In this document: positions 28,758 through 64,000 of the stretch, piece by piece | Numbering within the stretch: position 1 is the stretch's first letter | Layout of the letters: each line of letters begins with the position of its first letter | Origin: Balanoglossus misakiensis | Lineage: Eukaryota; Animalia; Hemichordata | DNA: 64,000 nt | Direction: 5' to 3' | NCBI GenBank assembly: GCA_040954595.2 | Contig: CM082587.2 | Location: 276,517-340,516 of the forward strand | Notes under the pieces: model-generated | Database searches by the model: none | Told to the model about the DNA's origin: nothing | What the model saw: only the letters and a program-made list of their open reading frames with translations | Translations under genes and position numbers: made by a program

Positions 28758-30178
28758 CTAACTACTGCTTGCTCGTGTAAGAGTAGCGCCCCCGCTAGGG
28801 CGTGTTTGCTGGGTCATTCGAACCACTGTGGAGCGAAACCTGTGCGATGTGTTTGATAAGTAACTGACGCCGTTGATGCTGCCTCGCCCTCGATACTTGC
28901 GACAGATATCGGGGATCTGAGCGATGTACTTCCGGAAGTTAGGGTTGAAAACCACGTATATGAACGTGTTGAACACACTGTTGCCCATGGCTGCTGTTTC
29001 GACAAGGTAGAAGATGGTGAGATGGTGTCGAATATCTTCCAAGGTGTCGAATTTTCCGATCCAGAAGAAATCTCTGAGGACACTGTACACGTAGTAGGGG
29101 GTCCAGCAAATGACAAACATGACGACTACAATTATCAGCATCTTGATACTTTTTCTCTTGGATTCTTCGATGGCTACTTCTTGAGATTGGGTCAGTTGGC
29201 CGTGGCTTCCAGGGATCTGCCGAAACCACAGTTTCCGAGCGACGATGCTGTAGGCTATGGTTATGATCAGAAAGGGTATGACAAACTCTGACATTAAAAG
29301 GAAGAGCGTGTTAATCTGCATGGATTTGGGACTCTTCCAGTAAATTTCGCCACAGTGGGATGACCCCGGATATTGCCAAGTACCGGAGTGGATAGCAGAC
29401 GGCAATGAGACGGCGATGGAAACGAACCATGTGATGCCGACGACGATCATGGCCTTTCGAACAGACATCCGGGGCTTCAGAGGGTTCATTATCATACAGT
29501 ATCTGATGTAGAAAAGAAATAATCAAGAAAGGAAAACATGTTCAGTGGAACAACGACACTCATTTTCTCATCAAAACATATAGATTTACATCAGAGGACC
29601 GCGCTGTTACGACGATGGTTTATTTTCAGATTTGGAGAAAGGTGCAACTTTTTTAACGTGTCACCTTTGTGAGGATTAATATCTTGGGAAATATTTAAAA
29701 CGTACCTGTCGATTGCTATAGCCAAGAGTGAATTGGTCGACACGTAAAGCGACAGTGGTTTCACGAAGCTAACAATGAGGCAGACACATTTCCCAAATGG
29801 CCAGTTTTGATTGATGTAATAATAAAAGTTGAACGGTGCACACGACAATGCCAAAATTAAGTCAGAGAGAGCCAGGTTGCCAATCAGTAAGTTCGTAGTG
29901 GTGCGCATTCGACGGAATCTGTAGATGACGTAGCAGAGTAGTATGTTGCCCACACCACATACTCCAATGGTTAGCGTATACACTATCCCAATAATCGCCT
30001 TCACCCCCACTGGAACTGTCGGGAATGGCAAGAGTTCGGTATAAGATTCGTTACACTGGTAGAAGTTGTCCAGATGGTTTCCGTAATCACCGTAATAATC
30101 TAACATTTGGCAGATATGTCCATAAAACTTCGGGTCGTTGTGACTGTCGTTCAGAACTCCGGGCCTAATCGTTGCCAT
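28758..30178 (-). CDS. Class A (rhodopsin-like) peptide GPCR, prokineticin-receptor-like; exons 30178-29706 and 29502-28758
   Basis: Seven hydrophobic segments; GVGN in TM1, TNLLIGNLALSD in TM2, SLYVSTNSLLAIAIDRY in TM3 (intron within DR|Y), CWTPYY in TM6 and FYLVETAAMGNSVFNTFIY in TM7; the TM3 string and NTxxY in place of NPxxY resemble PROKR1/2. Confidence 0.88.
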
Positions 30179-41453: not shown

Positions 41454-42100
41454 TTCGCTGTCTACATCGAGGTTATCGTGTAGGTCGCTTTCTTTTATCA
41501 ACGGGCGAATACCAGACGTTTCATTCGTATGCTAGCGTTGTGCACCTGCAGTGAAAATCCCGGCGTCCTTTACACCATTCACCTGGATCAACTAAATGCG
41601 CATAGTCTGTAACTTCAAACGAGCGAAGCTCTTCCAAAGTCGAACATTCAATTAACGTCGCGGAAACTTTCCAAAATTTGGAAGAGTTGTGTCCAGTTGG
41701 AGCGTTGGGATACAGCAATGACCCCTTCGCTTAACATCTGCAGTCAATCGACGACCGTCGAGCTGTGCACTCGTTGTTGAGTTTTCTCATCCAATGAGAT
41801 CAGTCCCTCAATGCTGACAATCGAAGCATACAGTTTACAGTGAATAGCAAGTGCAAGTGGTGGTAACATTTTGTAACAGATTGCAACGCTGACCCTGGTA
41901 TCATTAATTATTACGGTTTAAATATCTGTTGGCACAGTAAAGTTTATTATTTACGATCCCAGCTGCCTATATCATAACACAGAATGCGTCTAAGGTCATA
42001 TTGATCATGCGAGTCTCTGAGAATTACAGACTTTGAACGCTTGTTGCCTGAAAAAGATCACTTACTTTGCTTTCCAAGTTTCTTATTCAATTTACCGATT

Positions 42101-42796
42101 ATGATTTCATGAGCTATAACCCATGATTTTTTTCAAAAATCGACGAAATTTTGAAATTTCGCGAAGTCGAAAAATTGACATTTCTGGATGATTTTTATGA
42201 GCTATAACCCATGGTTTTTATCAAAAAATGACCAAATTTTGAAATTTCGCGAAGTCGAAAAATTGACATTTCTGGATGATTTTCATGAGCTATAACCCAT
42301 GGTTTTTATCAAAAAATGACCAAATTTTGAAATTTCGCAAAGTCGAAAAATTGACATTTCTGGATGATTTTCATGAGCTATAACCCATGGTTTTTATCAA
42401 AAAATGACCAAATTTTGAAATTTCGCGAAGTCGAAAAATTGACATTTCTGGACGATTTTCACGAGCTATAACCCATGGTTTTTATCAAAAAATGACCAAA
42501 CTTTGAAATTTCGCGAAGTCGAAAAATTGACATTTCTGGATGATTTTCATGAGCTATAACCCATGGTTTTTATCAAAAAATCACCAAATTTCGAAATTTC
42601 TCGAAGTCGAAAAATTGACATTTCTGGACGATTTTCATGAGCTCTATTCCATGGTTTTTATCAAAAAATGACCAAATTTTGAAATTTCGCGAAGTCGAAA
42701 AATTGACATTTCTGGATGATTTTCATGAGCTATAACCCATGGTTTTTATCAAATAATGACCAAATTTTGAAATTTCGCGAAGTCGTAAAATTGACA
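42101..42796 (+). repeat. Edge satellite subfamily: ~8 tandem copies of an 88-bp monomer GAGCTATAACCCATGGTTTTTATCAAAAAATGACCAAATTTTGAAATTTCGCGAAGTCGAAAAATTGACATTTCTGGATGATTTTCAT
   Basis: The GAGCT anchor recurs at 42111, 42199, 42287, 42375, 42463, 42551, 42639 and 42727 (period 88); roughly 80% identical by eye to the 87-bp main monomer. Confidence 0.95.
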
Positions 42797-45700
42797 CGCA
42801 AACTCGAAAAATCCTCGATTTTTGACGATTTTCCTGAGCTATAACCCATGGTTTTTTCAAAAAATGACCAAATTTTGAAAATTCGCAAACTCGAAAAATC
42901 CTCGATTTTTGACGATTTTCCTGAGCTATAACCCATGGTTTTTTAAAAAAATGACCAAATTTTGAAAATTCGCAAACTCGAAAAATCCTCGATTTTTGAC
43001 GATTTTCCTGAGCTATAACCCATGGTTTTTTCAAAAAATGACCAAATTTTGAAAATTCGCAAACTCGAAAAATCCTCGATTTTTGACGATTTTCCTGAGC
43101 TATAACCCATGGTTTTTTCAAAAAATGACCAAATTTTGAAAATTCGCAAACTCGAAAAATCCTCGATTTTTGACGATTTTCCTGAGCTATAACCCATGGT
43201 TTTTTCAAAAAATGACCAAATTTTGAAAATTCGCAAACTCCAAAAATCCTCGATTTTTGACGATTTTCCTGAGCTATAACCCATGGTTTTTTCAAAAAAT
43301 GACCAAATTTTGAAAATTCGCAAACTCCAAAAATCCTCGATTTTTGACGATTTTCCTGAGCTATAACCCATGGTTTTTTCAAAAAATGACCAAATTTTGA
43401 AAATTCGCAAACTCCAAAAATCCTCGATTTTTGACGATTTTCCTGAGCTATAACCCATGGTTTTTTCAAAAAATGACCAAATTTTGAAAATTCGCAAACT
43501 CGAAAAATCCTCGATTTTTGACGATTTTCCTGAGCTATAACCCATGGTTTTTTCAAAAAATGACCAAATTTTGAAAATTCGCAAACTCGAAAAATCCTCG
43601 ATTTTTGACGATTTTCCTGAGCTATAACCCATGGTTTTTTCAAAAAATGACCAAATTTTGAAAATTCGCAAACTCGAAAAATCCTCGATTTTTGACGATT
43701 TTCCTGAGCTATAACCCATGGTTTTTTCAAAAAATGACCAAATTTTGAAAATTCGCAAACTCGAAAAATCCTCGATTTTTGACGATTTACCTGAGCTATA
43801 ACCCATGGTTTTTTCAAAAAATGACCAAATTTTGAAAATTCGCAAACTCGAAAAATCCTCGATTTTTGACGATTTTCCTGAGCTATAACCCATGGTTTTT
43901 TTCAAAAAATGACCAAATTTTGAAAATTCGCAAACTCGAAAAATCCTCGATTTTTGACGATTTTCTTGAGCTATAACCCATGGTTTTTTCAAAAAATGAC
44001 CAAATTTTGAAAATTCGCAAACTCGAAAAATCCTCGATTTTTGACGATTTTCCTGAGCTATAACCCATGGTTTTTTCAAAAAATGACCAAATTTTGAAAA
44101 TTCGCAAACTCGAAAAATCCTCGATTTTTGACGATTTTCCTGAGCTATAACCCATGGTTTTTTCAAAAAATGACCAAATTTTGAAAATTCGCAAACTCGA
44201 AAAATCCTCGATTTTTGACGATTTTCCTGAGCTATAACCCATGGTTTTTTCAAAAAATGACCAAATTTTGAAAATTCGCAAACTCCAAAAATCCTCGATT
44301 TTTGACGATTTTCCTGAGCTATAACCCATGGTTTTTTCAAAAAATGACCAAATTTTGAAAATTCGCAAACTCCAAAAATCCTCGATTTTTGACGATTTTC
44401 CTGAGCTATAACCCATGGTTTTTTCAAAAAATGACCAAATTTTGAAAATTCGCAAACTCCAAAAATCCTCGATTTTTGACGATTTTCCTGAGCTATAACC
44501 CATGGTTTTTTCAAAAAATGACCAAATTTTGAAAATTCGCAAACTCCAAAAATCCTCGATTTTTGACGATTTTCCTGAGCTATAACCCATGGTTTTTTCA
44601 AAAAATGACCAAATTTTGAAAATTCGCAAACTCGAAAAATCCTCGATTTTTGACGATTTTCCTGAGCTATAACCCATGGTTTTTTCAAAAAATGACCAAA
44701 TTTTGAAAATTCGCAAACTCGAAAAATCCTCGATTTTTGACGATTTTCCTGAGCTATAACCCATGGTTTTTTCAAAAAATGACCAAATTTTGAAAATTCG
44801 CAAACTCGAAAAATCCTCGATTTTTGACGATTTTCCTGAGCTATAACCCATGGTTTTTTCAAAAAATGACCAAATTTTGAAAATTCGCAAACTCGAAAAA
44901 TCCTCGATTTTTGACGATTTTCCTGAGCTATAACCCATGGTTTTTTCAAAAAATGACCAAATTTTCAAAATTCGCAAACTCGAAAAATCCTCGATTTTTG
45001 ACGATTTTCCTGAGCTATAACCCATGGTTTTTTTCAAAAAATGACCAAATTTTGAAAATTCGCAAACTCGAAAAATCCTCGATTTTTGACGATTTTCTTG
45101 AGCTATAACCCATGGTTTTTTCAAAAAATGACCAAATTTTGAAAATTCGCAAACTCGAAAAATCCTCGATTTTTGACGATTTTCCTGAGCTATAACCCAT
45201 GGTTTTTTCAAAAAATGACCAAATTTTGAAAATTCGCAAACTCGAAAAATCCTCGAATTTTGACGATTTTCCTGAGCTATAACCCATGGTTTTTTCAAAA
45301 AATGACCAAATTTTGAAAATTCGCAAACTCGAAAAATCCTCGATTTTTGACGATTTTCCTGAGCTATAACCCATGGTTTTTTCAAAAAATGACCAAATTT
45401 TGAAAATTCGCAAACTCGAAAAATCCTCGATTTTTGACGATTTTCCTGAGCTATAACCCATGGTTTTTTCAAAAAATGACCAAATTTTGAAAATTCGCAA
45501 ACTCGAAAAATCCTCGATTTTTGACGATTTTCCTGAGCTATAACCCATGGTTTTTTCAAAAAATGACCAAATTTTGAAAATTCGCAAACTCCAAAAATCC
45601 TCGATTTTTGACGATTTTCCTGAGCTATAACCCATGGTTTTTTCAAAAAATGACCAAATTTTGAAAATTCGCAAACTCCAAAAATCCTCGATTTTTGACG

Positions 45701-48700
45701 ATTTTCCTGAGCTATAACCCATGGTTTTTTCAAAAAATGACCAAATTTTGAAAATTCGCAAACTCGAAAAATCCTCGATTTTTGACGATTTTCCTGAGCT
45801 ATAACCCATGGTTTTTTCAAAAAATGACCAAATTTTGAAAATTCGCAAACTCGAAAAATCCTCGATTTTTGACGATTTTCCTGAGCTATAACCCATGGTT
45901 TTTTCAAAAAATGACCAAATTTTGAAAATTCGCAAACTCCAAAAATCCTCGATTTTTGACGATTTTCCTGAGCTATAACCCATGGTTTTTTCAAAAAATG
46001 ACCAAATTTTGAAAATTCGCAAACTCCAAAAATCCTCGATTTTTGACGATTTTCCTGAGCTATAACCCATGGTTTTTTCAAAAAATGACCAAATTTTGAA
46101 AATTCGCAAACTCCAAAAATCCTCGATTTTTGACGATTTTCCTGAGCTATAACCCATGGTTTTTTCAAAAAATGACCAAATTTTGAAAATTCGCAAACTC
46201 CAAAAATCCTCGATTTTTGACGATTTTCCTGAGCTATAACCCATGGTTTTTTCAAAAAATGACCAAATTTTGAAAATTCGCAAACTCGAAAAATCCTCGA
46301 TTTTTGACGATTTTCCTGAGCTATAACCCATGGTTTTTTCAAAAAATGACCAAATTTTGAAAATTCGCAAACTCGAAAAATCCTCGATTTTTGACGATTT
46401 TCCTGAGCTATAACCCATGGTTTTTTCAAAAAATGACCAAATTTTGAAAATTCGCAAACTCGAAAAATCCTCGATTTTTGACGATTTTCCTGAGCTATAA
46501 CCCATGGTTTTTTCAAAAAATGACCAAATTTTGAAAATTCGCAAACTCGAAAAATCCTCGATTTTTGACGATTTTCCTGAGCTATAACCCATGGTTTTTT
46601 CAAAAAATGACCAAATTTTCAAAATTCGCAAACTCGAAAAATCCTCGATTTTTGACGATTTTCCTGAGCTATAACCCATGGTTTTTTTCAAAAAATGACC
46701 AAATTTTGAAAATTCGCAAACTCGAAAAATCCTCGATTTTTGACGATTTTCTTGAGCTATAACCCATGGTTTTTTCAAAAAATGACCAAATTTTGAAAAT
46801 TCGCAAACTCGAAAAATCCTCGATTTTTGACGATTTTCCTGAGCTATAACCCATGGTTTTTTCAAAAAATGACCAAATTTTGAAAATTCGCAAACTCGAA
46901 AAATCCTCGAATTTTGACGATTTTCCTGAGCTATAACCCATGGTTTTTTCAAAAAATGACCAAATTTTGAAAATTCGCAAACTCGAAAAATCCTCGATTT
47001 TTGACGATTTTCCTGAGCTATAACCCATGGTTTTTTCAAAAAATGACCAAATTTTGAAAATTCGCAAGAAAAATCCTCGATTTTTGACGATTTTCCTGAG
47101 CTATAACCCATGGTTTTTTCAAAAAATGACCAAATTTTGAAAATTCGCAAACTCGAAAAATCCTCGATTTTTGACGATTTTCCTGAGCTATAACCCATGG
47201 TTTTTTCAAAAAATGACCAAATTTTGAAAATTCGCAAACTCCAAAAAATCCTCGATTTTTGACGATTTTCCTGAGCTATAACCCATGGTTTTTTCAAAAA
47301 ATGACCAAATTTTGAAAATTCGCAAACTCCAAAAAATCCTCGATTTTTGACGATTTTCCTGAGCTATAACCCATGGTTTTTTCAAAAAATGACCAAATTT
47401 TGAAAATTCGCAAACTCGAAAAATCCTCGATTTTTGACGATTTTCCTGAGCTATAACCCATGGTTTTTTCAAAAAATGACCAAATTTTGAAAATTCGCAA
47501 ACTCGAAAAATCCTCGATTTTTGACGATTTTCCTGAGCTATAACCCATGGTTTTTTCAAAAAATGACCAAATTTTGAAAATTCGCAAACTCGAAAAATCC
47601 TCGATTTTTGACGATTTTCCTGAGCTATAACCCATGGTTTTTTCAAAAATGACCAAATTTTGAAAATTCGCAAACTCGAAAAATCCTCGATTTTTGACGA
47701 TTTTCCTGAGCTATAACCCATGGTTTTTTCAAAAAATGACCAAATTTTCAAAATTCGCAAACTCGAAAAATCCTCGATTTTTGACGATTTTCCTGAGCTA
47801 TAACCCATGGTTTTTTCAAAAAATGACCAAATTTTCAAAATTCGCAAACTCGAAAAATCCTCGATTTTTGACGATTTTCCTGAGCTATAACCCATGGTTT
47901 TTTCAAAAATGACCAAATTTTTGCAAAATTCGCAAACTCGAAAAATCCTCGATTTTTGACGATTTTCCTGAGCTATAACCCATGGTTTTTTCAAAAAATG
48001 ACCAAATTTTGAAAATTCGCAAACTCGAAAAATCCTCGATTTTTGACGATTTTCCTGAGCTATAACCCATGGTTTTTTCAAAAAAATGACCAAATTTTCA
48101 AAAATTCGCAAACTCGAAAAATCCTCGATTTTTGACGATTTTCCTGAGCTATAACCCATGGTTTTTTTCAAAAAATGACCAAATTTTGAAAATTCGCAAA
48201 CTCGAAAAATCCTCGATTTTTGACGATTTTCCTGAGCTATAACCCATGGTTTTTTCAAAAAATGACCAAATTTTGAAAATTCGCAAACTCGAAAAATCCT
48301 CGATTTTTGACGATTTTCCTGAGCTATAACCCATGTTTTTTTCAAAAAATGACCAAATTTTGAAAATTCGCAAACTCGACAAATCCTCGATTTTTGACGA
48401 TTTTCCTGAGCTATAACCCATGGTTTTTTCAAAAAATGACCAAATTTTGAAAATTCGCAAACTCGAAAAATCCTCGATTTTTGACGATTTTCCTGAGCTA
48501 TAACCCATGGTTTTTTCAAAAAATGACCAAATTTTGAAAATTCGCAAACTCCAAAAATCCTCGATTTTTGACGATTTTCCTGAGCTATAACCCATGGTTT
48601 TTTCAAAAAATGACCAAATTTTGAAAATTCGCAAACTCCAAAAATCCTCGATTTTTGACGATTTTCCTGAGCTATAACCCATGGTTTTTTCAAAAAATGA

Positions 48701-51700
48701 CCAAATTTTGAAAATTCGCAAACTCCAAAAATCCTCGATTTTTGACGATTTTCCTGAGCTATAACCCATGGTTTTTTCAAAAAATGACCAAATTTTGAAA
48801 ATTCGCAAACTCCAAAATCCTCGATTTTTGACGATTTTCCTGAGCTATAACCCATGGTTTTTTCAAAAAATGACCAAATTTTGAAAATTCGCAAACTCCA
48901 AAAATCCTCGATTTTTGACGATTTTCCTGAGCTATAACCCATGGTTTTTTTCAAAAAATGACCAAATTTTGAAAATTCGCAAACTCGAAAAATCCTCGAT
49001 TTTTGACGATTTTCCTGAGCTATAACCCATGGTTTTTTCAAAAAATGACCAAATTTTGAAAATTCGCAAACTCGAAAAATCCTCGATTTTTGACGATTTT
49101 CCTGAGCTATAACCCATGGTTTTTTCAAAAAATGACCAAATTTTGAAAATTCGCAAACTCGAAAAATCCTCGATTTTTGACGATTTTCCTGAGCTATAAC
49201 CCATGGTTTTTTCAAAAAATGACCAAATTTTGAAAATTCGCAAACTCGAAAAATCCTCGATTTTTGACGATTTACCTGAGCTATAACCCATGGTTTTTTC
49301 AAAAATGACCAAATTTTGAAAATTCGCAAACTCGAAAAATCCTCGATTTTGACGATTTTCCTGAGCTATAACCCATGGTTTTTTAAAAAAATGACCAAAT
49401 TTTGAAAATTTGCAAACTCGAAAAATCCTCGATTTTTGACGATTTTCCTGAGCTATAACCCATGGTTTTTTCAAAAAATGACCAAATTTTGAAAATTCGC
49501 AAACTCGAAAAATCCTCGATTTTTGACGATTTTCCTGAGCTATAACCCATGGTTTTTTCAAAAAATGACCAAATTTTGAAAATTCGCAAACTCGAAAAAT
49601 CCTCGATTTTTGACGATTTTCCTGAGCTATAACCCATGGTTTTTTCAAAAAATGACCAAATTTTGAAAATTCGCAAACTCGAAAAATCCTCGATTTTTGA
49701 CGATTTTCCTGAGCTATAACCCATGGTTTTTTCAAAAAATGACCAAATTTTGAAAATTCGCAAACTCGAAAAATTCTCGATTTTTGACGATTTTCCTGAG
49801 CTATAACCCATGGTTTTTTCAAAAAATGACCAAATTTTGAAAATTCGCAAACTCGAAAAATCCTCGATTTTTGACGATTTTCCTGAGCTATAACCCATGG
49901 TTTTTTCAAAAATGACCAAATTTTGAAAATTCGCAAACTCGACAAATCCTCGATTTTTGACGATTTTCCTGAGCTATAACCCATGGTTTTTCAAAAAATG
50001 ACCAAATTTTGAAAATTCGCAAACTCGAAAAATCCTCGATTTTTGACGATTTTCCTGAGCTATAACCCATGGTTTTTTCAAAAAATGACCAAATTTTGAA
50101 AATTCGCAAACTCCAAAAATCCTCGATTTTTGACGATTTCCTGAGCTATAACCCATGGTTTTTCAAAAAATGACCAAATTTTGAAAATTCGCAAACTCCA
50201 AAAATCCTCGATTTTTGACGATTTTCCTGAGCTATAACCCATGGTTTTTTCAAAAATGACCAATTTTGAAAATTCGCAAACTCCAAAAATCCTCGATTTT
50301 TGACGATTTTCCTGAGCTATAACCCATGGTTTTTTCAAAAAATGACCAAATTTTGAAAATTCGCAAACTCCAAAATCCTCGATTTTTGACGATTTTCCTG
50401 AGCTATAACCCATGGTTTTTTCAAAAAATGACCAAATTTTGAAAATTCGCAAACTCGAAAATCCTCGATTTTTGACGATTTTCCTGAGCTATAACCCATG
50501 GTTTTTTCAAAAAATGACCAAATTTTGAAAATTCGCAAACTCGAAAAATCCTCGATTTTTGACGATTTTCCTGAGCTATAACCCATGGTTTTTTTCAAAA
50601 AATGACCAAATTTTGAAAATTCGCAAACTCGAAAAATCCTCGATTTTTGACGATTTTCCTGAGCTATAACCCATGGTTTTTTTCAAAAAATGACCAAATT
50701 TTGAAAATTCGCAAACTCGAAAAATCCTCGATTTTTGACGATTTTCCTGAGCTATAACCCATGGTTTTTTCAAAAAATGACCAAATTTTGAAAATTCGCA
50801 AACTCGAAAAATCCTCGATTTTTGACGATTTCCTGAGCTATAACCCATGGTTTTTTCAAAAAATGACCAAATTTTGAAAATTCGCAAACTCGAAAAATCC
50901 TCGATTTTGACGATTTTCCTGAGCTATAACCCATGGTTTTTTCAAAAAATGACCAAATTTTGAAAATTCGCAAACTCGAAAAATCCTCGATTTTTGACGA
51001 TTTTCCTGAGCTATAACCCATGGTTTTTTCAAAAATGACCAAATTTTGAAAATTCGCAAACTCGAAAAATCCTCGATTTTTGACGATTTCCTGAGCTATA
51101 ACCCATGGTTTTTTCAAAAAATGACCAAATTTTGAAAATTCGCAAACTCGAAAAATCCTCGATTTTTGACGATTTTCCTGAGCTATAACCCATGGTTTTT
51201 CAAAAAATGACCAAATTTTGAAAATTCGCAACTCGAAAAATCTCGATTTTTGACGATTTTCTGAGCTATAACCCATGGTTTTTTCAAAAAATGACCAAAT
51301 TTTGAAAATTCGCAAACACGAAAAATCCTCGATTTTTGACGATTTTCCTGAGCTATAACCCATGGTTTTTTCAAAAAATGACCAAATTTTGAAAATTCGC
51401 AAACTCGAAAAATCCTCGATTTTTGACGATTTTCTTGAGCTATAACCCATGGTTTTTTCAAAAAATGACCAAATTTTGAAAATTCGCAAACTCGAAAAAT
51501 CCTCGATTTTTGACGATTTTCCTGAGCTATAACCCATGGTTTTTTCAAAAAATGACCAAATTTTGAAAATTCGCAAACTCGAAAAATCCTCGATTTTGAC
51601 GATTTTCCTGAGCTATAACCCATGGTTTTTTCAAAAAATGACCAAATTTTGAAAATTCGCAAACTCGAAAAATCCTCGATTTTTGACGATTTTCCTGAGC

Positions 51701-54700
51701 TATAACCCATGGTTTTTTTCAAAAAATGACCAAATTTTGAAAATTCGCAAACTCGAAAAATCCTCGATTTTTGACGATTTTCCTGAGCTATAACCCATGG
51801 TTTTTTCAAAAAATGACCAAATTTTGAAAATTCGCAAACTCGAAAAATCCTCGATTTTTGACGATTTTCCTGAGCTATAACCCATGGTTTTTTCAAAAAA
51901 TGACCAAATTTTGAAAATTCGCAAACTCCAAAAATCCTCGATTTTTGACGATTTTCCTGAGCTATAACCCATGGTTTTTTCAAAAAATGACCAAATTTTG
52001 AAAATTCGCAAACTCGAAAAATCCTCGATTTTTGACGATTTTCCTGAGCTATAACCCATGGTTTTTTCAAAAAATGACCAAATTTTGAAAATTCGCAAAC
52101 TCGAAAAATCCTCGATTTTTGACGATTTTCCTGAGCTATAACCCATGTTTTTTCAAAAAATGACCAAATTTTGAAAATTCGCAAACTCGAAAAATCCTCG
52201 ATTTTTGACGATTTTCCTGAGCTATAACCCATGGGTTTTTTCAAAAAATGACCAAATTTGAAAATTCGCAAACTCGAAAAATCCTCGATTTTTGACGATT
52301 TTCCTGAGCTATAACCCATGGTTTTTTCAAAAAATGACCAAATTTTGAAAATTCGCAAACTCGAAAAATCCTCGATTTTTGACGATTTTCCTGAGCTATA
52401 ACCCATGGTTTTTTCAAAAAATGACCAAATTTTCAAAATTCGCAAACTCGAAAAATCCTCGATTTTTGACGATTTTCCTGAGCTATAACCCATGGTTTTT
52501 TCAAAAAATGACCAAATTTTCAAAATTCGCAAACTCGAAAAATCCTCGATTTTTGACGATTTTCCTGAGCTATAACCCATGGTTTTTTCAAAAAATGACC
52601 AAATTTTCAAAATTCGCAAACTCGAAAAATCCTCGATTTTTGACGATTTTCCTGAGCTATAACCCATGGTTTTTTCAAAAAATGACCAAATTTTCAAAAT
52701 TCGCAAACTCGAAAAATCCTCGATTTTTGACGATTTTCCTGAGCTATAACCCATGGTTTTTTCAAAAAATGACCAAATTTTGAAAATTCGCAAACTCGAA
52801 AAATCCTCGATTTTTGACGATTTTCCTGAGCTATAACCCATGGTTTTTTTCAAAAAAATGACCAAATTTTGAAAATTTCGCAAACTCGAAAAATCCTCGA
52901 TTTTTGACGATTTTCCTGAGCTATAACCCATGGTTTTTTTCAAAAAATAACCAAATTTTGAAAATTCGCAAACTCGAAAAATCCTCGATTTTTGACGATT
53001 TTCCTGAGCTATAACCCATGGTTTTTTCAAAAAATGACCAAATTTTGAAAATTCGCAAACTCGAAAAATCCTCGATTTTTGACGATTTTCCTGAGCTATA
53101 ACCCATGGTTTTTTCAAAAAATGACCAAATTTTGAAAATTCGCAAACTCGAAAAATCCTCGATTTTTGACGATTTTCCTGAGCTATAACCCATGGTTTTT
53201 TCAAAAAATGACCAAATTTTGAAAATCGCAAACTCGAAAAATCCTCGATTTTTGACGATTTTCCTGAGCTATAACCCATGGTTTTTTCAAAAAATGACCA
53301 AATTTTGAAAATTCGCAAACTCGAAAAATCCTCGATTTTTGACGATTTTCCTGAGCTATAACCCATGGTTTTTTCAAAAAATGACCAAATTTTGAAAATT
53401 CGCAAACTCGAAAAATCCTCGATTTTTGACGATTTTCCTGAGCTATAACCCATGGTTTTTTCAAAAAATGACCAAATTTTGAAAATTCGCAAACTCGAAA
53501 AATCCTCGATTTTTGACGATTTTCCTGAGCTATAACCCATGGTTTTTCAAAAAATGACCAAATTTTGAAAATTCGCAAACTCGAAAAATCCTCGATTTTT
53601 GACGATTTTCCTGAGCTATAACCCATGGTTTTTTCAAAAAATGACCAAATTTTGAAAATTCGCAAACTCGAAAAATCCTCGATTTTGACGATTTTCCTGA
53701 GCTATAACCCATGGTTTTTTCAAAAAATGACCAAATTTTAAAATTCGCAAACTCGAAAAATCCTCGATTTTTGACGATTTTCCTGAGCTATAACCCATGG
53801 TTTTTTCAAAAAATGACCAAATTTTGAAAATTCGCAAACTCGAAAAATCCTCGATTTTTGACGATTTTCCTGAGCTATAACCCATGGTTTTTTCAAAAAA
53901 TGACCAAATTTGAAAATTCGCAAACTCGAAAAATCCTCGATTTTTGACGATTTTCCTGAGCTATAACCCATGGTTTTTTCAAAAAATGACCAAATTTTGA
54001 AAATTCGCAAACTCGAAAAATCCTCGATTTTTGACGATTTTCCTGAGCTATAACCCATGGTTTTTTCAAAAAATGACCAAATTTTGAAAATTCGCAAACT
54101 CGAAAAATCCTCGATTTTTGACGATTTTCTGAGCTATAACCCATGGTTTTTTCAAAAAAATGACCAAATTTTCAAAATTCGCAAACTCGAAAAATCCTCG
54201 ATTTTTGACGATTTTCCTGAGCTATAACCCATGGTTTTTTCAAAAAATGACCAAATTTTAAAAATTCGCAAACTCGACAAATCCTCGATTTTTGACGATT
54301 TTCCTGAGCTATAACCCATGGTTTTTTCAAAAAATGACCAAATTTTGAAAATTCGCAAACTCGAAAAATCCTCGATTTTTGACGATTTTCCTGAGCTATA
54401 ACCCATGGTTTTTTCAAAAATGACCAAATTTTGAAAATTCGCAAACTCGAAAAATCCTCGATTTTTGACGATTTTCCTGAGCTATAACCCATGGTTTTTT
54501 CAAAAATGACCAAATTTTGAAAATTCGCAAACTCGAAAAATCCTCGATTTTTGACGATTTTCCTGAGCTATAACCCATGGTTTTTTCAAAAAATGACCAA
54601 ATTTTGAAAATTCGCAAACTCGAAAAATTCTCGATTTTTGACGATTTTCCTGAGCTATAACCCATGGTTTTTTCAAAAAATGACCAAATTTTGAAAATTC

Positions 54701-55447
54701 GCAAACTCGAAAAATCCTCGATTTTGACGATTTTCCTGAGCTATAACCCATGGTTTTTTCAAAAAATGACCAAATTTTGAAAATTCGCAAACTCGAAAAA
54801 TCCTCGATTTTTGACGATTTTCCTGAGCTATAACCCATGGTTTTTTCAAAAAATGACCAAATTTTGAAAATTCGCAAACTCGAAAAATCCTCGATTTTTG
54901 ACGATTTTCCTGAGCTATAACCCATGGTTTTTTCAAAAAATGACCAAATTTTGAAAATTCGCAAACTCGAAAAATCCTCGATTTTGACGATTTTCCTGAG
55001 CTATAACCCATGGTTTTTTTCAAAAAATGACCAAATTTTGAAAATTCGCAAACTCGAAAAATCCTCGATTTTTGACGATTTTCCTGAGCTATAACCCATG
55101 GTTTTTTCAAAAAATGACCAAATTTTGAAAATTCGCAAACTCGAAAAATCCTCGATTTTTGACGATTTTCCTGAGCTATAACCCATGGTTTTTTCAAAAA
55201 ATGACCAAATTTTGAAAATTCGCAAACTCGAAAAATCCTCGATTTTTGACGATTTTCCTGAGCTATAACCCATGGTTTTTCAAAAAATGACCAAATTTTG
55301 AAAATTCGCAAACTCGAAAAATCCTCGAATTTTGACGATTTTCCTGAGCTATAACCCATGGTTTTTTTCAAAATATGACCAAATTTTGAAAATTCGCAAA
55401 CTCGAAAAATCCTCGATTTTTGACGATTTTCCTGAGCTATAACCCAT
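42797..55447 (+). repeat. Satellite DNA array, 87-bp monomer GAGCTATAACCCATGGTTTTTTCAAAAAATGACCAAATTTTGAAAATTCGCAAACTCGAAAAATCCTCGATTTTTGACGATTTTCCT, ~145 copies, forward orientation
   Basis: Period 87 (e.g. GAGCT at 42836, 42923); monomers near-identical, with a few recurrent variants. Confidence 0.98.
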
Positions 55448-58400
55448 TTTTTGAAAAAACTATGGGTTATAGCTCAGGAAAATCGTCAAAAATCGAGTAT
55501 TTTTCGAGTTTGCGAATTTTGAAAATTTGGTCATTTTTTGAAAAAACCATGGGTTATAGCTCAGGGAAATCGTCAAAAATCGAGGATTTTTCGAGTTTGC
55601 GAATTTTGAAAATTTGGTCATTTTTTGAAAAAAACATGGGTTATAGCTCAGGAAAATCGTCAAAAATCGAGGATTTTTCGAGTTTGCGAATTTTCAAAAT
55701 TTGGTCATTTTTGAAAAAACCATGGGTTATAGCTCAGGAAAATCGTCAAAAATCGAGGATTTTTCGAGTTTGCGAATTTTCAAAATTTGGTCATTTTTTG
55801 AAAAAACCATGGGTTATAGCTCAGGAAAATCGTCAAAAATCGAGGATTTTTCGAGTTTGCGAATTTTCAAAATTCTGGTCATTTTTTGAAAAAACCATGG
55901 GTTATAGCTCAGGAAAATCGTCAAAAATCGAGGATTTGTCGAGTTTGCGAATTTTCAAAATTTGGTCATTTTTTGAAAAAACCATGGGTTATAGCTCAGG
56001 AAAATCGTCAAAAATCGAGGATTTGTCGAGTTTGCGAATTTTCAAAATTTGGTCATTTTTGAAAAAACCATGGGTTATAGCTCAGGAAAATCGTCAAAAA
56101 TCGAGGATTTTTCGAGTTTGCGAATTTTCAAAATTTGGTCATTTTTTGAAAAAACCATGGGTTATAGCTCAGGAAAATCGTCAAAAATCGAGGATTTTTC
56201 GAGTTTGCGAATTTTCAAAATTTGGTCATTTTTTGAAAAAACCATGGGTTATAGCTCAGGAAAATCGTCAAAAATCGAGGATTTTTCGAGTTTGCGAATT
56301 TTCAAAATTTGGTCATTTTTTGAAAAAACCATGGGTTATAGCTCAGGAAAATCGTCAAAAATCGAGGATTTTTCGAGTTTGCGAATTTTCAAAATTTGGT
56401 CATTTTTTGAAAAAACCATGGGTTATAGCTCAGGAAAATAGTCAAAAATCGAGGATTTTTCGAGTTTGCGAATTTTCAAAATTTGGTCATTTTTTGAAAA
56501 AACCATGGGTTATAGCTCAGGAAAATCGTCAAAAATCGAGGATTTGTCGAGTTTGCGAATTTTCAAAATTTGGTCATTTTTTGAAAAACCATGGGTTATA
56601 GCTCAGGAAAATCGTCAAAAATCGAGGATTTGTCGAGTTTGCGAATTTTCAAAATTTGGTCATTTTTTGAAAAAACCATGGGTTATAGCTCAGGAAAATC
56701 GTCAAAAATCGAGGATTTTTCGAGTTTGCGAATTTTCAAAATTTGGTCATTTTTTGAAAAAACCATGGGTTATAGCTCAGGAAAATCGTCAAAAATCGAG
56801 GATTTGTCGAGTTTGCGAATTTTCAAAATTTGGTCATTTTTTGAAAAAACCATGGGTTATAGCTCAGGAAAATCGTCAAAAATCGAGGATTTGTCGAGTT
56901 TGCGAATTTTCAAAATTTGGTCATTTTTTGAAAAAACCATGGGTTATAGCTCAGGAAAATCGTCAAAAATCGAGGATTTGTCGAGTTTGCGAATTTTCAA
57001 AATTTGGTCATTTTTTGAAAAAACCATGGGTTATAGCTCAGGAAAATCGTCAAAAATCGAGGATTTTTCGAGTTTGCGAATTTTGAAAATTTGGTCATTT
57101 TTGAAAAAACCATGGGTTATAGCTCAGGAAAATCGTCAAAAATCGAGGATTTTTCGAGTTTGCGAATTTTGAAAATTTGGTCATTTTTTGAAAAAACCAT
57201 GGGTTATAGCTCAGGAAAATCGTCAAAAATCGAGGATTTTCGAGTTTGCGAATTTTCAAAATTTGGTCATTTTTTGAAAAAACCATGGGTTATAGCTCAG
57301 GAAAATCGTCAAAAATCGAGGATTTTTCGAGTTTGCGAATTTTCAAAATTTGGTCATTTTTTGAAAAAACCATGGGTTATTGCTCAGGAAAATCGTCAAA
57401 AATCGAAGATTTGTCGAGTTTGCGAATTTTCAAAATTTGGTCAATTTATGAAAAAACCATGGGTTATAGCTCAGGAAAATCGTCAAAAATCGAGGATTTG
57501 TCGAGTTTGCGAATTTTCAAAATTTGGTCATTTTTTCAAAAAACCATGGGTTATAGCTCAGGAAAATCGTCAAAAATCGAGGATTTTTCGAGTTTGCGAA
57601 TTTTGAAAATTTGGTCATTTTTTGAAAAAACCATGGGTTATAGCTCAGGAAAATCGTCAAAAATCGAGGATTTTTCGAGTTTGCGAATTTTGAAAATTTG
57701 GTCATTTTTTGAAAAAACCATGGGTTATAGCTCAGGAAAATCGTCAAAAATCGAGGATTTTTCGAGTTTGCGAATTTTGAAAATTTGGTCATTTTTTGAA
57801 AAAACCATGGGTTATAGCTCAGGAAAATCGTCAAAAATCGAGGATTTTTCGAGTTTGCGAATTTTGAAAATTTGGTCATTTTTTGAAAAACCATGGGTTA
57901 TAGCTCAGGAAAATCGTCAAAAATCGAGGATTTTTCGAGTTTGCGAATTTTGAAAATTTGGTCATTTTTTGAAAAAACCATGGGTTATAGCTCAGGAAAA
58001 TCGTCAAAAATCGAGGATTTTTCGAGTTTGCGAATTTTCAAAATTTGGTCATTTTTGAAAAAACCATGGGTTATAGCTCAGGAAAATCGTCAAAAATCGA
58101 GGATTTTTCGAGTTTGCGAATTTTCAAAATTTGGTCATTTTTGAAAAAACCATGGGTTATAGCTCAGGAAAATCGTCAAAAATCGAGGATTTTTCGAGTT
58201 TGCGAATTTTCAAAATTTGGTCATTTTTTGAAAAAACCATGGGTTATAGCTCAGGAAAATCGTCAAAAATCGAGGATTTTTCGAGTTTGCGAATTTTCAA
58301 AATTTGGTCATTTTTTGAAAAAACCATGGGTTATAGCTCAGGAAATCGTCAAAAATCGAGGATTTTTCGAGTTTGTGAATTTTCAAAATTTGGTCATTTT

Positions 58401-61400
58401 TTGAAAAAACCATGGGTTATAGCTCAGGAAAATCGTCAAAAATCGAGGATTTTTCGAGTTTGCGAATTTTCAAAATTTGGTCATTTTTTGAAAAAACCAT
58501 GGGTTATAGCTCAGGAAAATCGTCAAAAATCGAGGATTTTTCGAGTTCGCGAATTTTGAAAATTTGGTCATTTTTTGAAAAAACCATGGGTTATAGCTCA
58601 GGAAAATCGTCAAAAATCGAGGATTTTTCGAGTTTGCGAATTTTCAAAATTTGGTCATTTTTTGAAAAAACCATGGGTTATAGCTCAGGAAAATCGTCAA
58701 AAATCGAGGATTTTTCGAGTTTGCGAATTTTCAAAATTTGGTCATTTTTTGAAAAAACCATGGGTTATAGCTCAGGAAAATCGTCAAAAATCGAGGATTT
58801 TTCGAGTTTGCGAATTTTCAAAATTTGGTCATTTTTTGAAAAAACCATGGGTTATAGCTCAGGAAAATCGTCAAAAATCGAGGATTTTTCGAGTTTGCGA
58901 ATTTTGAAAATTTGGTCATTTTTTGAAAAAACCATGGGTTATAGCTCAGGAAAATCGTCAAAAATCGAGGATTTTTCGAGTTTGCGAATTTTGAAAATTT
59001 GGTCATTTTTTGAAAAAACCATGGGTTATAGCTCAGGAAAATCGTCAAAAATCGAGGATTTTTCGAGTTCGCGAATTTTGAAAATTTGGTCATTTTTTGA
59101 AAAAACCATGGGTTATAGCTCAGGAAAATCGTCAAAATCGAGGATTTTTCGAGTTTGCGAATTTTGAAAATTTGGTCATTTTTTGAAAAAACCATGGGTT
59201 ATAGCTCAGGAAAATCGTCAAAAATCGAGGATTTTTCGAGTTTGCGAATTTTGAAAATTTGGTCATTTTTTGAAAAAACCATGGGTTATAGCTCAGGAAA
59301 ATCGTCAAAAATCGAGGATTTTTCGAGTTTGCGAATTTTGAAAATTTGGTCATTTTTTGAAAAAACCATGGGTTATAGCTCAGGAAAATCGTCAAAAATC
59401 GAGGATTTTTCGAGTTTGCGAATTTTCAAAATTTGGTCATTTTTTGAAAAAACCATGGGTTATAGCTCAGGAAAATCGTCAAAAATCGAGGATTTTTCGA
59501 GTTTGCGAATTTTCAAAATTTGGTCATTTTTTGAAAAAACCATGGGTTATAGCTCAGGAAAATCGTCAAAAATCGAGGATTTTTCGAGTTTGCGAATTTT
59601 CAAAATTTGGTCATTTTTTGAAAAAACCATGGGTTATAGCTCAGGAAAATCGTCAAAAATCGAGGATTTTTCGAGTTTGCGAATTTTCAAAATTTGGTCA
59701 TTTTTTGAAAAAACCATGGGTTATAGCTCAGGAAAATCGTCAAAAATCGAGGATTTTTCGAGTTTGCGAATTTTGAAAATTTGGTCATTTTTTGAAAAAA
59801 CCATGGGTTATAGCTCAGGAAAATCGTCAAAAATCGAGGAGTTTGCGAATTTTCAAAATTTGGTCATATTTTGAAAAAACCATGGGTTATAGCTCAGGAA
59901 AATCGTCAAAATTCGAGGATTTTTCGAGTTTGCGAATTTTCAAAATTTGGTCATATTTTGAAAAAACCATGGGTTATAGCTCAGGAAAATCGTCAAAATT
60001 CGAGGATTTTTCGAGTTTGCGAATTTTCAAAATTTGGTCATATTTTGAAAAAACCATGGGTTATAGCTCAGGAAAATCGTCAAAATTCGAGGATTTTTCG
60101 AGTTTGCGAATTTTCAAAATTTGGTCATTTTTTGAAAAAACCATGGGTTATAGCTCAGGAAAATCGTCAAAAATCGAGGATTTTTCGAGTTTGCGAATTT
60201 TCAAAATTTGGTCATTTTTTTTAAAAACCATGGGTTATAGCTCAGGAAAATCGTCAAAAATCGAGGATTTTTCGAGTTTGCGAATTTTGAAAATTTGGTC
60301 ATTTTTTGAAAAAACCATGGGTTATAGCTCAGGAAAATCGTCAAAAATCGAGGATTTGTCGAGTTTGCGAATTTTGAAAATTTGGTCATTTTTTGAAAAA
60401 AACATGGGTTATAGCTCAGGAAAATCGTCAAAAATCGAGGATTTGTCGAGTTTGCGAATTTTGAAAATTTGGTCATTTTTTGAAAAAAACATGGGTTATA
60501 GCTCAGGAAAATCGTCAAAAATCGAGGATTTGTCGAGTTTGCGAATTTTGAAAATTTTGTCATTTTTTGAAAAAACCATGGGTTATAGCTCAGGAAAATC
60601 GTCAAAAATCGAGGATTTGTCGAGTTTGCGAATTTTCAAAATTTGGTCATTTTTTGAAAAAACCATGGGTTATAGCTCAGGAAAATCGTCAAAAATCGAG
60701 GATTTGTCGAGTTTGCGAATTTTCAAAATTTGGTCATTTTTTGAAAAAACCATGGGTTATAGCTCAGGAAAATCGTCAAAAATCGAGGATTTGTCGAGTT
60801 TGCGAATTTTCAAAATTTGGTCATTTTTTGAAAAAACCATGGGTTATAGCTCAGGAAAATCGTCAAAAATCGAGGATTTGTCGAGTTTGCGAATTTTCAA
60901 AATTTGGTCATTTTTTGAAAAAACCATGGGTTATAGCTCAGGAAAATCGTCAAAAATCGAGGATTTTTCGAGTTTGCGAATTTTCAAAATTTGGTCATTT
61001 TTTGAAAAAACCATGGGTTATAGCTCAGGAAAATCGTCAAAAATCGAGGATTTTTCGAGTTTGCGAATTTTCAAAATTTGGTCATTTTTTGAAAAAACCA
61101 TGGGTTATAGCTCAGGAAAATCGTCAAAAATCGAGGATTTTTCGAGTTTGCGAATTTTCAAAATTTGGTCATTTTTTGAAAAAACCATGGGTTATAGCTC
61201 TGGAAAATCGTCAAAAATCGAGGATTTTTCGAGTTTGCGAATTTTCAAAATTTGGTCATTTTTTGAAAAAACCATGGGTTATAGCTCAGGTAAATCGTCA
61301 AAAATCGAGGATTTTTCGAGTTTGCGAATTTTCAAAATTTGGTCATTTTTTGAAAAAACCATGGGTTATAGCTCAGGAAAATCGTCAAAAATCGAGGATT

Positions 61401-64000
61401 TTTCGAGTTTGCGAATTTTCAAAATTTGGTCATTTTTTGAAAAAACCATGGGTTATAGCTCAGGAAAATCGTCAAAAATCGAGGATTTTTCGAGTTTGCG
61501 AATTTTGAAAATTTGGTCATTTTTTGAAAAAACCATGGGTTATAGCTCAGGAAAATCGTCAAAAATCAAGTGAGTTTGCGAATTTTCAAAATTTGGTCAT
61601 ATTTTGAAAAAACCATGGGTTATAGCTCAGGAAAATCGTCAAAATTCGAGGATTTTTCGAGTTTGCGAATTTTCAAAATTTGGTCATATTTTGAAAAAAC
61701 CATGGGTTATAGCTCAGGAAAATCGTCAAAATTCGAGGATTTTTCGAGTTTGCGAATTTTCAAAATTTGGTCATATTTTGAAAAAACCATGGGTTATAGC
61801 TCAGGAAAATCGTCAAAATTCGAGGATTTTTCGAGTTTGCGAATTTTCAAAATTTGGTCATTTTTTGAAAAAACCATGGGTTATAGCTCAGGAAAATCGT
61901 CAAAAATCGAGGATTTGTCGAGTTTGCGAATTTTCAAAATTTGGTCATTTTTTGAAAAAACCATGGGTTATAGCTCAGGAAAATCGTCAAAAATCGAGGA
62001 TTTTTCGAGTTTGCGAATTTTCAAAATTTGGTCATTTTTTGAAAAAACCATGGGTTATAGCTCAGGAAAATCGTCAAAAATCGAGGATTTTTCGAGTTTG
62101 CGAATTTTCAAAATTTGGTCATTTTTTGAAAAAACCATGGGTTATAGCTCAGGAAAATCGTCAAAAATCGAGGATTTTTCGAGTTTGCGAATTTTCAAAA
62201 TTTGGTCATTTTTTGAAAAAACCATGGGTTATAGCTCTGGAAAATCGTCAAAAATCGAGGATTTTTCGAGTTTGCGAATTTTCAAAATTTGGTCATTTTT
62301 TGAAAAAACCATGGGTTATAGCTCAGGTAAATCGTCAAAAATCGAGGATTTTTCGAGTTTGCGAATTTTCAAAATTTGGTCATTTTTTGAAAAAACCATG
62401 GGTTATAGCTCAGGAAAATCGTCAAAAATCGAGGATTTTTCGAGTTTGCGAATTTTCAAAATTTGGTCATTTTTTGAAAAAACCATGGGTTATAGCTCAG
62501 GAAAATCGTCAAAAATCGAGGATTTTTCGAGTTTGCGAATTTTGAAAATTTGGTCATTTTTTGAAAAAACCATGGGTTATAGCTCAGGAAAATCGTCAAA
62601 ATTCGAGGAGTTTTGCGAATTTTCAAAATTTGGTCATATTTTGAAAAAACCATGGGTTATAGCTCAGGAAAATCGTCAAAATTCGAGGATTTTTCGAGTT
62701 TGCGAATTTTCAAAATTTGGTCATATTTTGAAAAAACCATGGGTTATAGCTCAGGAAAATCGTCAAAATTCGAGGATTTTTCGAGTTTGCGAATTTTCAA
62801 AATTTGGTCATATTTTGAAAAAACCATGGGTTATAGCTCAGGAAAATCGTCAAAATTCGAGGATTTTTCGAGTTTGCGAATTTTCAAAATTTGGTCATTT
62901 TTTGAAAAAACCATGGGTTATAGCTCAGGAAAATCGTCAAAATTCGAGGATTTTTCGAGTTTGCGAATTTTCAAAATTTGGTCATTTTTTGAAAAAACCA
63001 TGGGTTATAGCTCAGGAAAATCGTCAAAAATCGAGGATTTTTCGAGTTTGCGAATTTTCAAAATTTGGTCATTTTTTTGAAAAAACCATGGGTTATAGCT
63101 CAGGAAAATCGTCAAAAATCGAGGATTTGTCGAGTTTGCGAATTTTGAAAATTTGGTCATTTTTTGAAAAAACCATGGGTTATAGCTCAGGAAAATCGTC
63201 AAAAATCGAGGATTTGTCGAGTTTGCGAATTTTGAAAATTTGGTCATTTTTTGAAAAAACCATGGGTTATAGCTCAGGAAAATCGTCAAAAATCGAGGAT
63301 TTGTCGAGTTTGCGAATTTTGAAAATTTGGTCATTTTTTGAAAAAACCATGGGTTATAGCTCAGGAAAATCGTCAAAAATCGAGGATTTGTCGAGTTTGC
63401 GAATTTTGAAAATTTGGTCATTTTTTGAAAAAACCATGGGTTATAGCTCAGGAAAATCGTCAAAAATCGAGGATTTGTCGAGTTTGCGAATTTTCAAAAT
63501 TTGGTCATTTTTTGAAAAAACCATGGGTTATAGCTCAGGAAAATCGTCAAAAATCGAGGATTTGTCGAGTTTGCGAATTTTCAAAATTTGGTCATTTTTT
63601 GAAAAAACCATGGGTTATAGCTCAGGAAAATCGTCAAAAATCGAGGATTTTTCGAGTTTGCGAATTTTCAAAATTTGGTCATTTTTTGAAAAAACCATGG
63701 GTTATAGCTCAGGAAAATCGTCAAAAATCGAGGATTTTTCGAGTTTGCGAATTTTCAAAATTTGGTCATTTTTTGAAAAAACCATGGGTTATAGCTCAGG
63801 AAAATCGTCAAAAATCGAGGATTTTTCGAGTTTGCGAATTTTCAAAATTTGGTCATTTTTTGAAAAAACCATGGGTTATAGCTCAGGAAAATCGTCAAAA
63901 ATCGAGGATTTTTCGAGTTTGCGAATTTTCAAAATTTGGTCATTTTTTGAAAAAACCATGGGTTATAGCTCAGGAAAATCGTCAAAAATCGAGGATTTTT
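55448..64000 (-). repeat. Same 87-bp satellite in reverse orientation, ~98 copies, continuing past the window end
   Basis: Monomer reads ATGGGTTATAGCTCAGGAAAATCGTCAAAAATCGAGGATTTTTCGAGTTTGCGAATTTTCAAAATTTGGTCATTTTTTGAAAAAACC, the reverse complement of the left-arm monomer. Confidence 0.98.

What the first reader, a model, noticed from the sequence alone, without database searches (positions are those of the whole stretch)
55380..55520. Satellite polarity switch: giant inverted repeat joined through a 3-bp microhomology with a 14-bp spacer
Seen: the forward array ends ...GAGCTATAACCCAT (55447) and continues as TTTTTGAAAAAACT-ATGGGTTATAGCTC..., the reverse-complement monomer. CAT (55445-55447) is shared between forward ccCAT and reverse gtCATTTTTTG. 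No foreign DNA is inserted, and the arms (at least 8.5 kb each in this window) are separated only by 55448-55461. The arms are not mirror images in their variant patterns: CTCC blocks occur only on the left, and GATTTGTCG is common on the right but sporadic on the left. That argues against a simple fold-back read artefact. Inference: a template-switch/fold-back or microhomology-mediated inversion, followed by independent homogenisation of each arm; the junction could extrude a cruciform.
Basis: partly seen in the sequence, partly recalled or inferred. Interest (0 to 1): 0.8.

Follow-up and report, generated by a model that had tools for sequence, protein, structure and literature searches.

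The report
Inversion scar in a satellite array
An 87-base repeat array in an animal genome flips direction once, at a join with no inserted DNA; this is likely an ordinary inversion scar of a kind common in satellite DNA, but the join was not found in public sequence data and lies in a stretch that looks poorly supported.

Summary
The switch is in the sequence as described. A forward array (42797-55447) meets a reverse array (55445-64000+) at a shared CAT, with 14 bases between the arms and no insertion. The arms are not mirror images at any offset, so a fold-back read is unlikely.

A random join in this 87-bp unit gives a spacer of 14 or less in 34% of cases and a microhomology of 3 or more in 12%. 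The fold-back hairpin at this site is about 0 kcal/mol, rank 52 of 87.

For a real join: three private substitutions lie within 120 bases of it (P about 0.001). Against: an indel-rich 12-kb zone spans it, and none of 4112 contigs laid on it spans it (inconclusive).

Best reading: one breakpoint of an inversion inside the array (0.5). Rivals: single-molecule or assembly artefact (0.27), fold-back (0.12). Strand switches are common in human and Tribolium satellites.

Side lead: one run shows T>C/A>G-rich satellite contigs resembling A-to-I hyper-editing, not tied to this locus.

The parts
42101..42796 (+). Older 88-bp subfamily of the same satellite (about 8 units, about 83-87% like the main unit) forming the array's left edge; it starts mid-unit, with no multi-copy terminal domain
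   Evidence: depth 26.6 up to 42092, then over 50,000
42797..55447 (+). Left arm: 145.6 copies of the 87-bp unit, with higher-order blocks (period 19 units) in its outer part
55445..55447 (.). 3-bp microhomology (CAT) shared by both arms: the join
55448..55461 (-). 14-base spacer, part of the reverse unit in the young-subfamily form, with a private substitution at 55461; predicted to pair internally, leaving a 3-base loop
55412..55497 (.). Perfect 36-bp inverted arms (55412-55447 and 55462-55497) around the spacer
55445..64000 (-). Right arm: at least 98.7 copies in reverse orientation, same commonest unit as the left arm, own variant blocks (12- and 32-unit repeats); continues beyond the window
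55461..55566 (-). Cluster of three private substitutions (55461, 55498, 55566) next to the join
55260..55433 (+). Last two full left units; they carry the linked T71A then A28T marks otherwise typical of right-arm blocks (A28T in 1 of 145 left units, 9 of 98 right)
46666..58512 (.). Indel-rich zone spanning the join: 54 of 135 units carry a small indel, against 2 of 44 and 2 of 64 outside; likely low read support

Best explanation
The satellite switches direction once, at a 3-base overlap with no inserted DNA, and this is likely one breakpoint of a real inversion that joined two distant parts of the same young array in opposite orientation. Shown: the join, the overlap, the shared commonest unit on both sides, and variant patterns that differ and do not mirror. 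Inferred: a break in the array was repaired by end joining or a template switch onto an inverted unit, helped by the unit's weak CAT...ATG quasi-palindrome. The other breakpoint would lie beyond 64000 or has been lost. The giant inverted repeat is then a by-product, since any two opposed stretches of units that are 98% alike form one. No function is needed. If transcribed through, it would fold into long double-stranded RNA.
For: (1) No mirror symmetry. At offset 0, 98 unit pairs share 2 variant marks and disagree at 94 (rotation null mean 2.9); the first 10 pairs share 0 and disagree at 7. The best local match at any offset scores 9.4 against a shuffled null of mean 9.4, while within-arm controls score 22.2 and 26.8. 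(2) Both arms have the same commonest unit and share rare variants (T84A, G16T, C23A, T71A, A28T), so they come from one local lineage. (3) Three private substitutions lie within 2.35 units right of the join, where 0.21 are expected at the noisy-zone rate (P=0.0013, a post-hoc test). That fits an edge that escapes homogenisation, or error-prone repair (inference); Tribolium inversion sites are also diverged (PMC13081366, passages). (4) The only A28T unit on the left is the one at the join, preceded by T71A as in right-arm blocks. (5) PacBio HiFi data showed virtually no foldback reads in three samples (PMC12870357, passages); that this assembly is HiFi is my inference. (6) Human beta-satellite and HSat3 arrays carry hundreds of strand switches, read there as stochastic by-products (bioRxiv 10.64898/2026.07.22.740206, passages). 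(7) An unchecked note reports opposed arrays of an 87-base repeat elsewhere in this genome (e1-10617120).
Against: None of the 1468, 2624 and 20 contigs laid from X1, X2 and X3 spans the join, although contigs of depth 3.5-8 inside the satellite were kept in the same answer. The tool warns that contigs drop rare variants and that a filter leaves records out. The join sits in a 12-kb indel-rich zone about the length of one long read, and indel rates differ across the join (29 events in 4.4 kb left, 11 in 3.9 kb right, P=0.017), which one uniform read would not give. The private substitutions could be read errors. The reciprocal breakpoint was not seen: no strand-changing row among the 6 joints, and no genome is held. 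The microhomology (12% by chance) is weak evidence for the repair route.
Confidence: 0.5

Rival explanations
1. The join is an artefact or a one-molecule event: a chimeric or somatic long read joining two pieces of the same subfamily was laid into the contig, because chimera filters work poorly inside a very deep satellite.
For: An indel-rich zone (46666-58512) spans the join: 54 of 135 units against 4 of 108 outside. No contig of 4112 laid spans the join. The indel rate steps at the join (P=0.017).
Against: The arms are not mirrors, so it is not the described foldback read (definition in PMC12870357). A ligation chimera would need both pieces from one minority subfamily: the C at unit position 55 is not among the 40 of 61 difference rows shown. 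Private substitutions cluster at the join. A real palindrome centre could also lose coverage (my inference; PMC12870357 notes that palindromes amplify poorly by PCR).
Confidence: 0.27
2. A fold-back event: a broken strand ended at the unit's ATG, snapped back onto the CAT 14 bases upstream and was extended into a palindrome, and the arms later lost their mirror pattern by unequal exchange.
For: Read on the minus strand, the join is exactly a CAT-14-base-ATG fold-back, with 4 more T:A pairs inside. Microhomology-primed foldback is documented in yeast, though for short 5-34-bp inverted duplications (PMC11724301, abstract).
Against: There is no mirror trace even in the units next to the join. The hairpin is -0.1 kcal/mol, rank 52 of 87 possible 3' ends, the best being -7.2. 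One search lists 30 joins with a longer microhomology and a spacer of 20 or less. A spacer of 14 or less arises in 34% of random joins.
Confidence: 0.12
3. An overgrown foldback-type transposon whose inverted arms are tandem arrays, with this join as its centre.
For: Long opposed tandem arrays fit the foldback layout (Tetris, PMC4079207, sections 10 and 17). The array lies in gene-rich DNA with older units at its outer edge. An unchecked note proposes this for an intron elsewhere in the genome (e1-10617120).
Against: There is no multi-copy terminal domain: depth stays at 26.6 up to 42092, and the loose ends at 42105 are just the preceding unit. There is no middle domain. The centre is in the young form, not the old-edge form. 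A centre shared by many copies should be deep in the contigs, and none was seen.
Confidence: 0.08

Closest known systems
Strand switches in human beta-satellite and HSat3 arrays (bioRxiv 10.64898/2026.07.22.740206; 9 of 9 passages read)
   Same: Orientation change inside one satellite array, with no known function.
   Different: One switch in at least 22 kb of a dispersed array beside genes, in an invertebrate; not confirmed in reads.
Macro-dyad symmetries of Tribolium madens TmSat1/TmSat2 (PMC13081366; 12 of 20 passages read)
   Same: Two multi-kilobase opposed subarrays of one unit, diverged bases at the inversion site, predicted hairpin or cruciform.
   Different: The Tribolium inversion sites are conserved in thousands of copies, confirmed on raw HiFi reads and putatively (peri)centromeric. 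This join was seen once and in no contig.
Foldback transposons, e.g. Tetris of Drosophila virilis (PMC4079207; abstract and sections 10 and 17 read)
   Same: Inverted arms built of tandem repeats.
   Different: No flanking terminal domain, no middle domain, arms far longer than 1.7 kb, target-site duplication untestable.
Microhomology-primed foldback inversions at breaks (yeast, PMC11724301; abstract only)
   Same: Inverted join at a short microhomology with a short spacer.
   Different: The arms here are kilobases long and not mirror copies, and the priming hairpin is not stable.

Membership tests
Satellite strand switch (inversion breakpoint) | Same unit in opposite orientations on the two sides of one point | tested here: met
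Satellite strand switch (inversion breakpoint) | Join present in independent molecules | tested here: inconclusive
   0 of 4112 laid contigs span it; contigs only, one sample, rare variants dropped
Satellite strand switch (inversion breakpoint) | Reciprocal breakpoint | not testable with these tools
   right arm leaves the window; no genome held
Tribolium-type macro-dyad | Multi-kilobase opposed subarrays | tested here: met
   12.65 kb and at least 8.55 kb
Tribolium-type macro-dyad | Conserved inversion site repeated in thousands of copies | tested here: not met
   a high-copy join should be deep in the contigs; none at 90% likeness; once in the window
Tribolium-type macro-dyad | (Peri)centromeric setting | not testable with these tools
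   the left flank holds PAP2, 7tm_1 and WDR5-like exons; chromosome position unknown
Foldback transposon (Tetris-like) | Long inverted arms with internal tandem repeats | tested here: met
Foldback transposon (Tetris-like) | Multi-copy outer terminal domain | tested here: not met
   depth 26.6 in X1 up to 42092; loose ends at 42105 are the preceding unit
Foldback transposon (Tetris-like) | Middle domain between the arms | tested here: not met
   the spacer is 14 bases of the unit itself
Foldback transposon (Tetris-like) | 8-10-bp target-site duplication | not testable with these tools
   right end outside the window
Fold-back palindrome (hairpin-primed) or foldback read artefact | Second arm is a mirror copy of the first | tested here: not met
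Fold-back palindrome (hairpin-primed) or foldback read artefact | Favourable priming hairpin at the join | tested here: not met
   -0.1 kcal/mol, rank 52 of 87

The most novel reading that the evidence does not exclude
This 87-bp family habitually forms giant opposed arrays at dispersed, gene-rich sites (this one, and an intron-filling one in an unchecked note), each with its own centre. These palindromes are transcribed into multi-kilobase hairpin RNA that ADAR hyper-edits. That would extend Tribolium-like macro-dyads to a distant animal lineage and make satellite palindromes a major source of edited double-stranded RNA there.
Probability: 0.15. Interest if true: 0.55.

Novelty: new member of a known kind. 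Interest (0 to 1): 0.25.

Why it matters
As a single inversion scar it matters little: such switches are common in long-read assemblies of satellites. It is a clean, datable marker for how opposed arms of one array exchange or drift, and a reminder that a short spacer and a short microhomology are expected by geometry in short AT-rich units. It would matter more if opposed arrays proved typical of this family and fed ADAR-edited hairpin RNA, since one of the papers read states that macro-dyad satellite arrays have so far been documented only in Tribolium (PMC13081366).

Tried and rejected
No whole genome is held, so the right end, a reciprocal switch and other loci could not be read.

Public runs: 3 listed, one sample and one study, all as contigs. 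X1 and X2 hold 0.84 and 0.73 of the flank words and may be the assembly's own source, so they are not independent. Junction laying: no spanning piece; table 8 showed 24 pieces and left out 4091. Left-edge laying: one X1 contig (depth 26.6, one differing letter at 42012) runs from the flank 30 letters into the array, one short of the tool's bridging rule. None of 6 joints in table 5 changes strand; table 5c has no kind label and 14 of its 26 rows were not shown.

A metagenome scan with a 15-base motif gave 120 loci; the 80 listed each had a single match. BLAST of the unit against all 120 gave at most 39-base pieces at about 85%: no relative of the array.

Look-ups of earlier findings by sequence, near the place and in relatives gave nothing, so I could not check that the 87-base repeat of e1-10617120 is this family.

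Literature: the search 'acorn worm' + 'satellite DNA' gave one unrelated paper; 'hemichordate' + 'satellite' + 'tandem repeat' + 'genome assembly' gave 7 papers, 6 listed, none on this repeat by title; a search on palindrome loss in short reads gave none. Supplements were not read and may hold junction-level data for the Tribolium and human cases.

Rejected: mirror copy at any offset; a hairpin hot spot at this site; lack of G58C in the 40 left units nearest the join as a sign of exchange between arms (about 7 clusters, roughly 0.1 by hand estimate, not significant); coding meaning for the long stop-free frames of the 29-codon unit (no test run, taken as a by-product of the repeat).

Full report
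Observation. The window's right third is an 87-bp satellite. It runs forward at 42797-55447 (145.6 copies) and in reverse at 55445-64000 (98.7 copies, leaving the window); GC skew flips sign at the same place. There is one switch only, and its 24-mer occurs once. The arms overlap at CAT (55445-55447). The 14 bases 55448-55461 belong to the reverse unit, nothing foreign is inserted, and the perfect stem is 36 bp. The variant claims hold: G58C 21 of 145 against 0 of 98, A60C 3 of 145 against 23 of 98, G42C 9 of 145 against 27 of 98 (units are clustered, so those Fisher P values overstate the difference). The array really begins at about 42101, with some eight units of an older 88-bp subfamily that change abruptly to the young form through a 109-bp hybrid unit at 42727. 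The left flank is animal DNA with PAP2, rhodopsin-type receptor and WDR5-like exons (4 of 7 frames scanned had Pfam hits). Earlier unchecked notes call the host a likely acorn worm; I did not test that.

Is the join special? I enumerated all 87 x 87 insertion-free forward-to-reverse joins. The spacer can never exceed 43 bases. It is 14 or less in 34% of products, a microhomology of 3 or more arises in 12% of cut pairs, and both together in 5%. Thirty listed joins have a longer microhomology with a spacer of 20 or less. As a fold-back primer the site is poor: -0.1 kcal/mol, rank 52 of 87, against -7.2 for the best end. The finished centre does fold almost fully, with 4 extra T:A pairs and a 3-base loop (-23.0 kcal/mol for 56 bases). 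A cruciform is therefore possible on paper but untested.

Are the arms mirrors? No. At offset 0, 98 unit pairs share 2 marks and disagree at 94 (rotation null mean 2.9, maximum 8), and the first 10 pairs share none. The best local match at any offset scores 9.4, equal to the block-shuffled null (mean 9.4, 100 shuffles), while the same method finds the within-arm higher-order repeats at 22.2 and 26.8. Unit by unit, the arms differ by 118 substitutions and 92 gap columns in 8547. They share their commonest unit and several rare variants, so they come from one young local lineage. This argues against a foldback read and against a recent fold-back palindrome, and it favours joining of two distant parts of one array.

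Is the join real? For: three substitutions found nowhere else among 243 units lie at 55461, 55498 and 55566, where 0.21 are expected (P=0.0013, post hoc). The last two left units carry the T71A-then-A28T signature of right-arm blocks. Against: small indels affect 54 of 135 units between 46666 and 58512 but only 4 of 108 outside. That looks like uncorrected long-read error over about one read length (inference), and the rate differs across the join (P=0.017 by events; P=0.075 by units). Three public runs of one sample exist as contigs. None of 4112 contigs laid on 55412-55497 spans the join, though low-depth satellite contigs were kept. The satellite's summed depth is in the millions against 26.6 in the flank, so a single-copy join could be simplified away, and the tool says that a hole proves nothing. 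I put artefact or one-molecule event at 0.27.

Transposon reading. An earlier unchecked note (e1-10617120) describes two opposed arrays of an 87-base repeat filling an intron elsewhere in this genome and proposes an overgrown foldback element. Here the defining outer domain is missing: depth stays at 26.6 up to 42092, and the loose ends at 42105 are the preceding unit. There is no middle domain, and the spacer has the young form. Tetris has an outer flanking domain, a middle domain and 8-10-bp duplications (PMC4079207, abstract and sections 10 and 17). The duplication cannot be tested here.

Comparison with what is known. Human beta-satellite and HSat3 arrays show hundreds of strand switches, spread at random and scaling with array length (bioRxiv 10.64898/2026.07.22.740206, passages). 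Tribolium madens has macro-dyads up to 75 kb with conserved inversion sites in thousands of copies, confirmed on reads (PMC13081366, passages). Two notes on other genomes report copied inversion scars in satellites (unchecked). Foldback read artefacts map back to the same place on the other strand and were virtually absent from HiFi data (PMC12870357, passages). Microhomology-primed foldback makes short inverted duplications in yeast (PMC11724301, abstract). This finding works like a satellite strand switch and is filed as a new member of that kind, subject to read confirmation. It does not meet the conserved, amplified-site feature of Tribolium.

Side lead. Run X3 is small (28 million letters, longest contig 6357) and holds next to none of the flank words. 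Its kind is guessed as DNA; I infer that it may be RNA. On the satellite, 21 of its 39 changed places are A>G or T>C, against 30 of 98 in X1 and X2 (P=0.018). T>C at 42205 has a share of 3.5% in X3, against 0.002% and 0.023%. One loose end matches the young unit (55411-55440) with 9 of 13 T read as C and no other change (compared by eye; most of its length rests on one contig). Four of the 6 X3 loose ends shown look T>C-rich, none of the 12 shown for X1 and X2 does, and one search shows one with an A>G run. This resembles ADAR hyper-editing of double-stranded RNA, which is known in transcribed repeats of animals (PMC5850803 and PMC3834823, seen only as search listings). It fits opposed arrays being transcribed, but also sense and antisense transcripts of this very abundant family pairing with each other. 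It cannot be tied to this locus.

Verdict. The best explanation is a single inversion breakpoint in a young satellite array (0.5), then artefact (0.27), fold-back (0.12) and foldback transposon (0.08). Novelty: new member of a known kind. Interest 0.25.

Noticed in passing
run X3 laid on window 41950-42275 and 55412-55497: Satellite contigs rich in T>C and A>G changes, including one in the young-subfamily form with 9 of 13 T read as C; resembles A-to-I hyper-editing of double-stranded satellite RNA if X3 is an RNA run.
   Followed up: partly
window 42101-42835: An older 88-bp subfamily forms the array edge and is replaced abruptly by the young 87-bp form through one 109-bp hybrid unit at 42727.
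   Followed up: partly
window 43880-46930 and 59800-63100: Higher-order repeats: a 19-unit period on the left arm; 12- and 32-unit repeats on the right, with three different 7-8-base deletions at the same place in the block (units at 59895, 61628, 62665).
   Followed up: partly
window 46666-58512: Zone with about ten times more homopolymer indels than the rest of the array; likely low consensus quality.
   Followed up: yes
window 38840-39352 and 41160-41531 (minus strand): A PAP2-family phosphatase exon (Pfam PF01569, E 2.8e-17) and a probable upstream exon of the same gene (no Pfam hit); the satellite starts about 570 bases beyond the second frame.
   Followed up: partly
window 28758-30199 (minus strand): Two-exon rhodopsin-family receptor gene (7tm_1 in both frames).
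   Followed up: partly
window 1178-1525: WDR5-like WD40 exon; other frames nearby (6328-6777, 14241-14897) had no Pfam hit.
   Followed up: partly
window 3889-4006: Perfect 60-bp tandem duplication in otherwise unique DNA.
   Followed up: no
window 42723-44964 (minus strand): The 87-bp unit is 29 codons long and gives stop-free frames of 392 and 673 residues; probably a by-product of the repeat.
   Followed up: no
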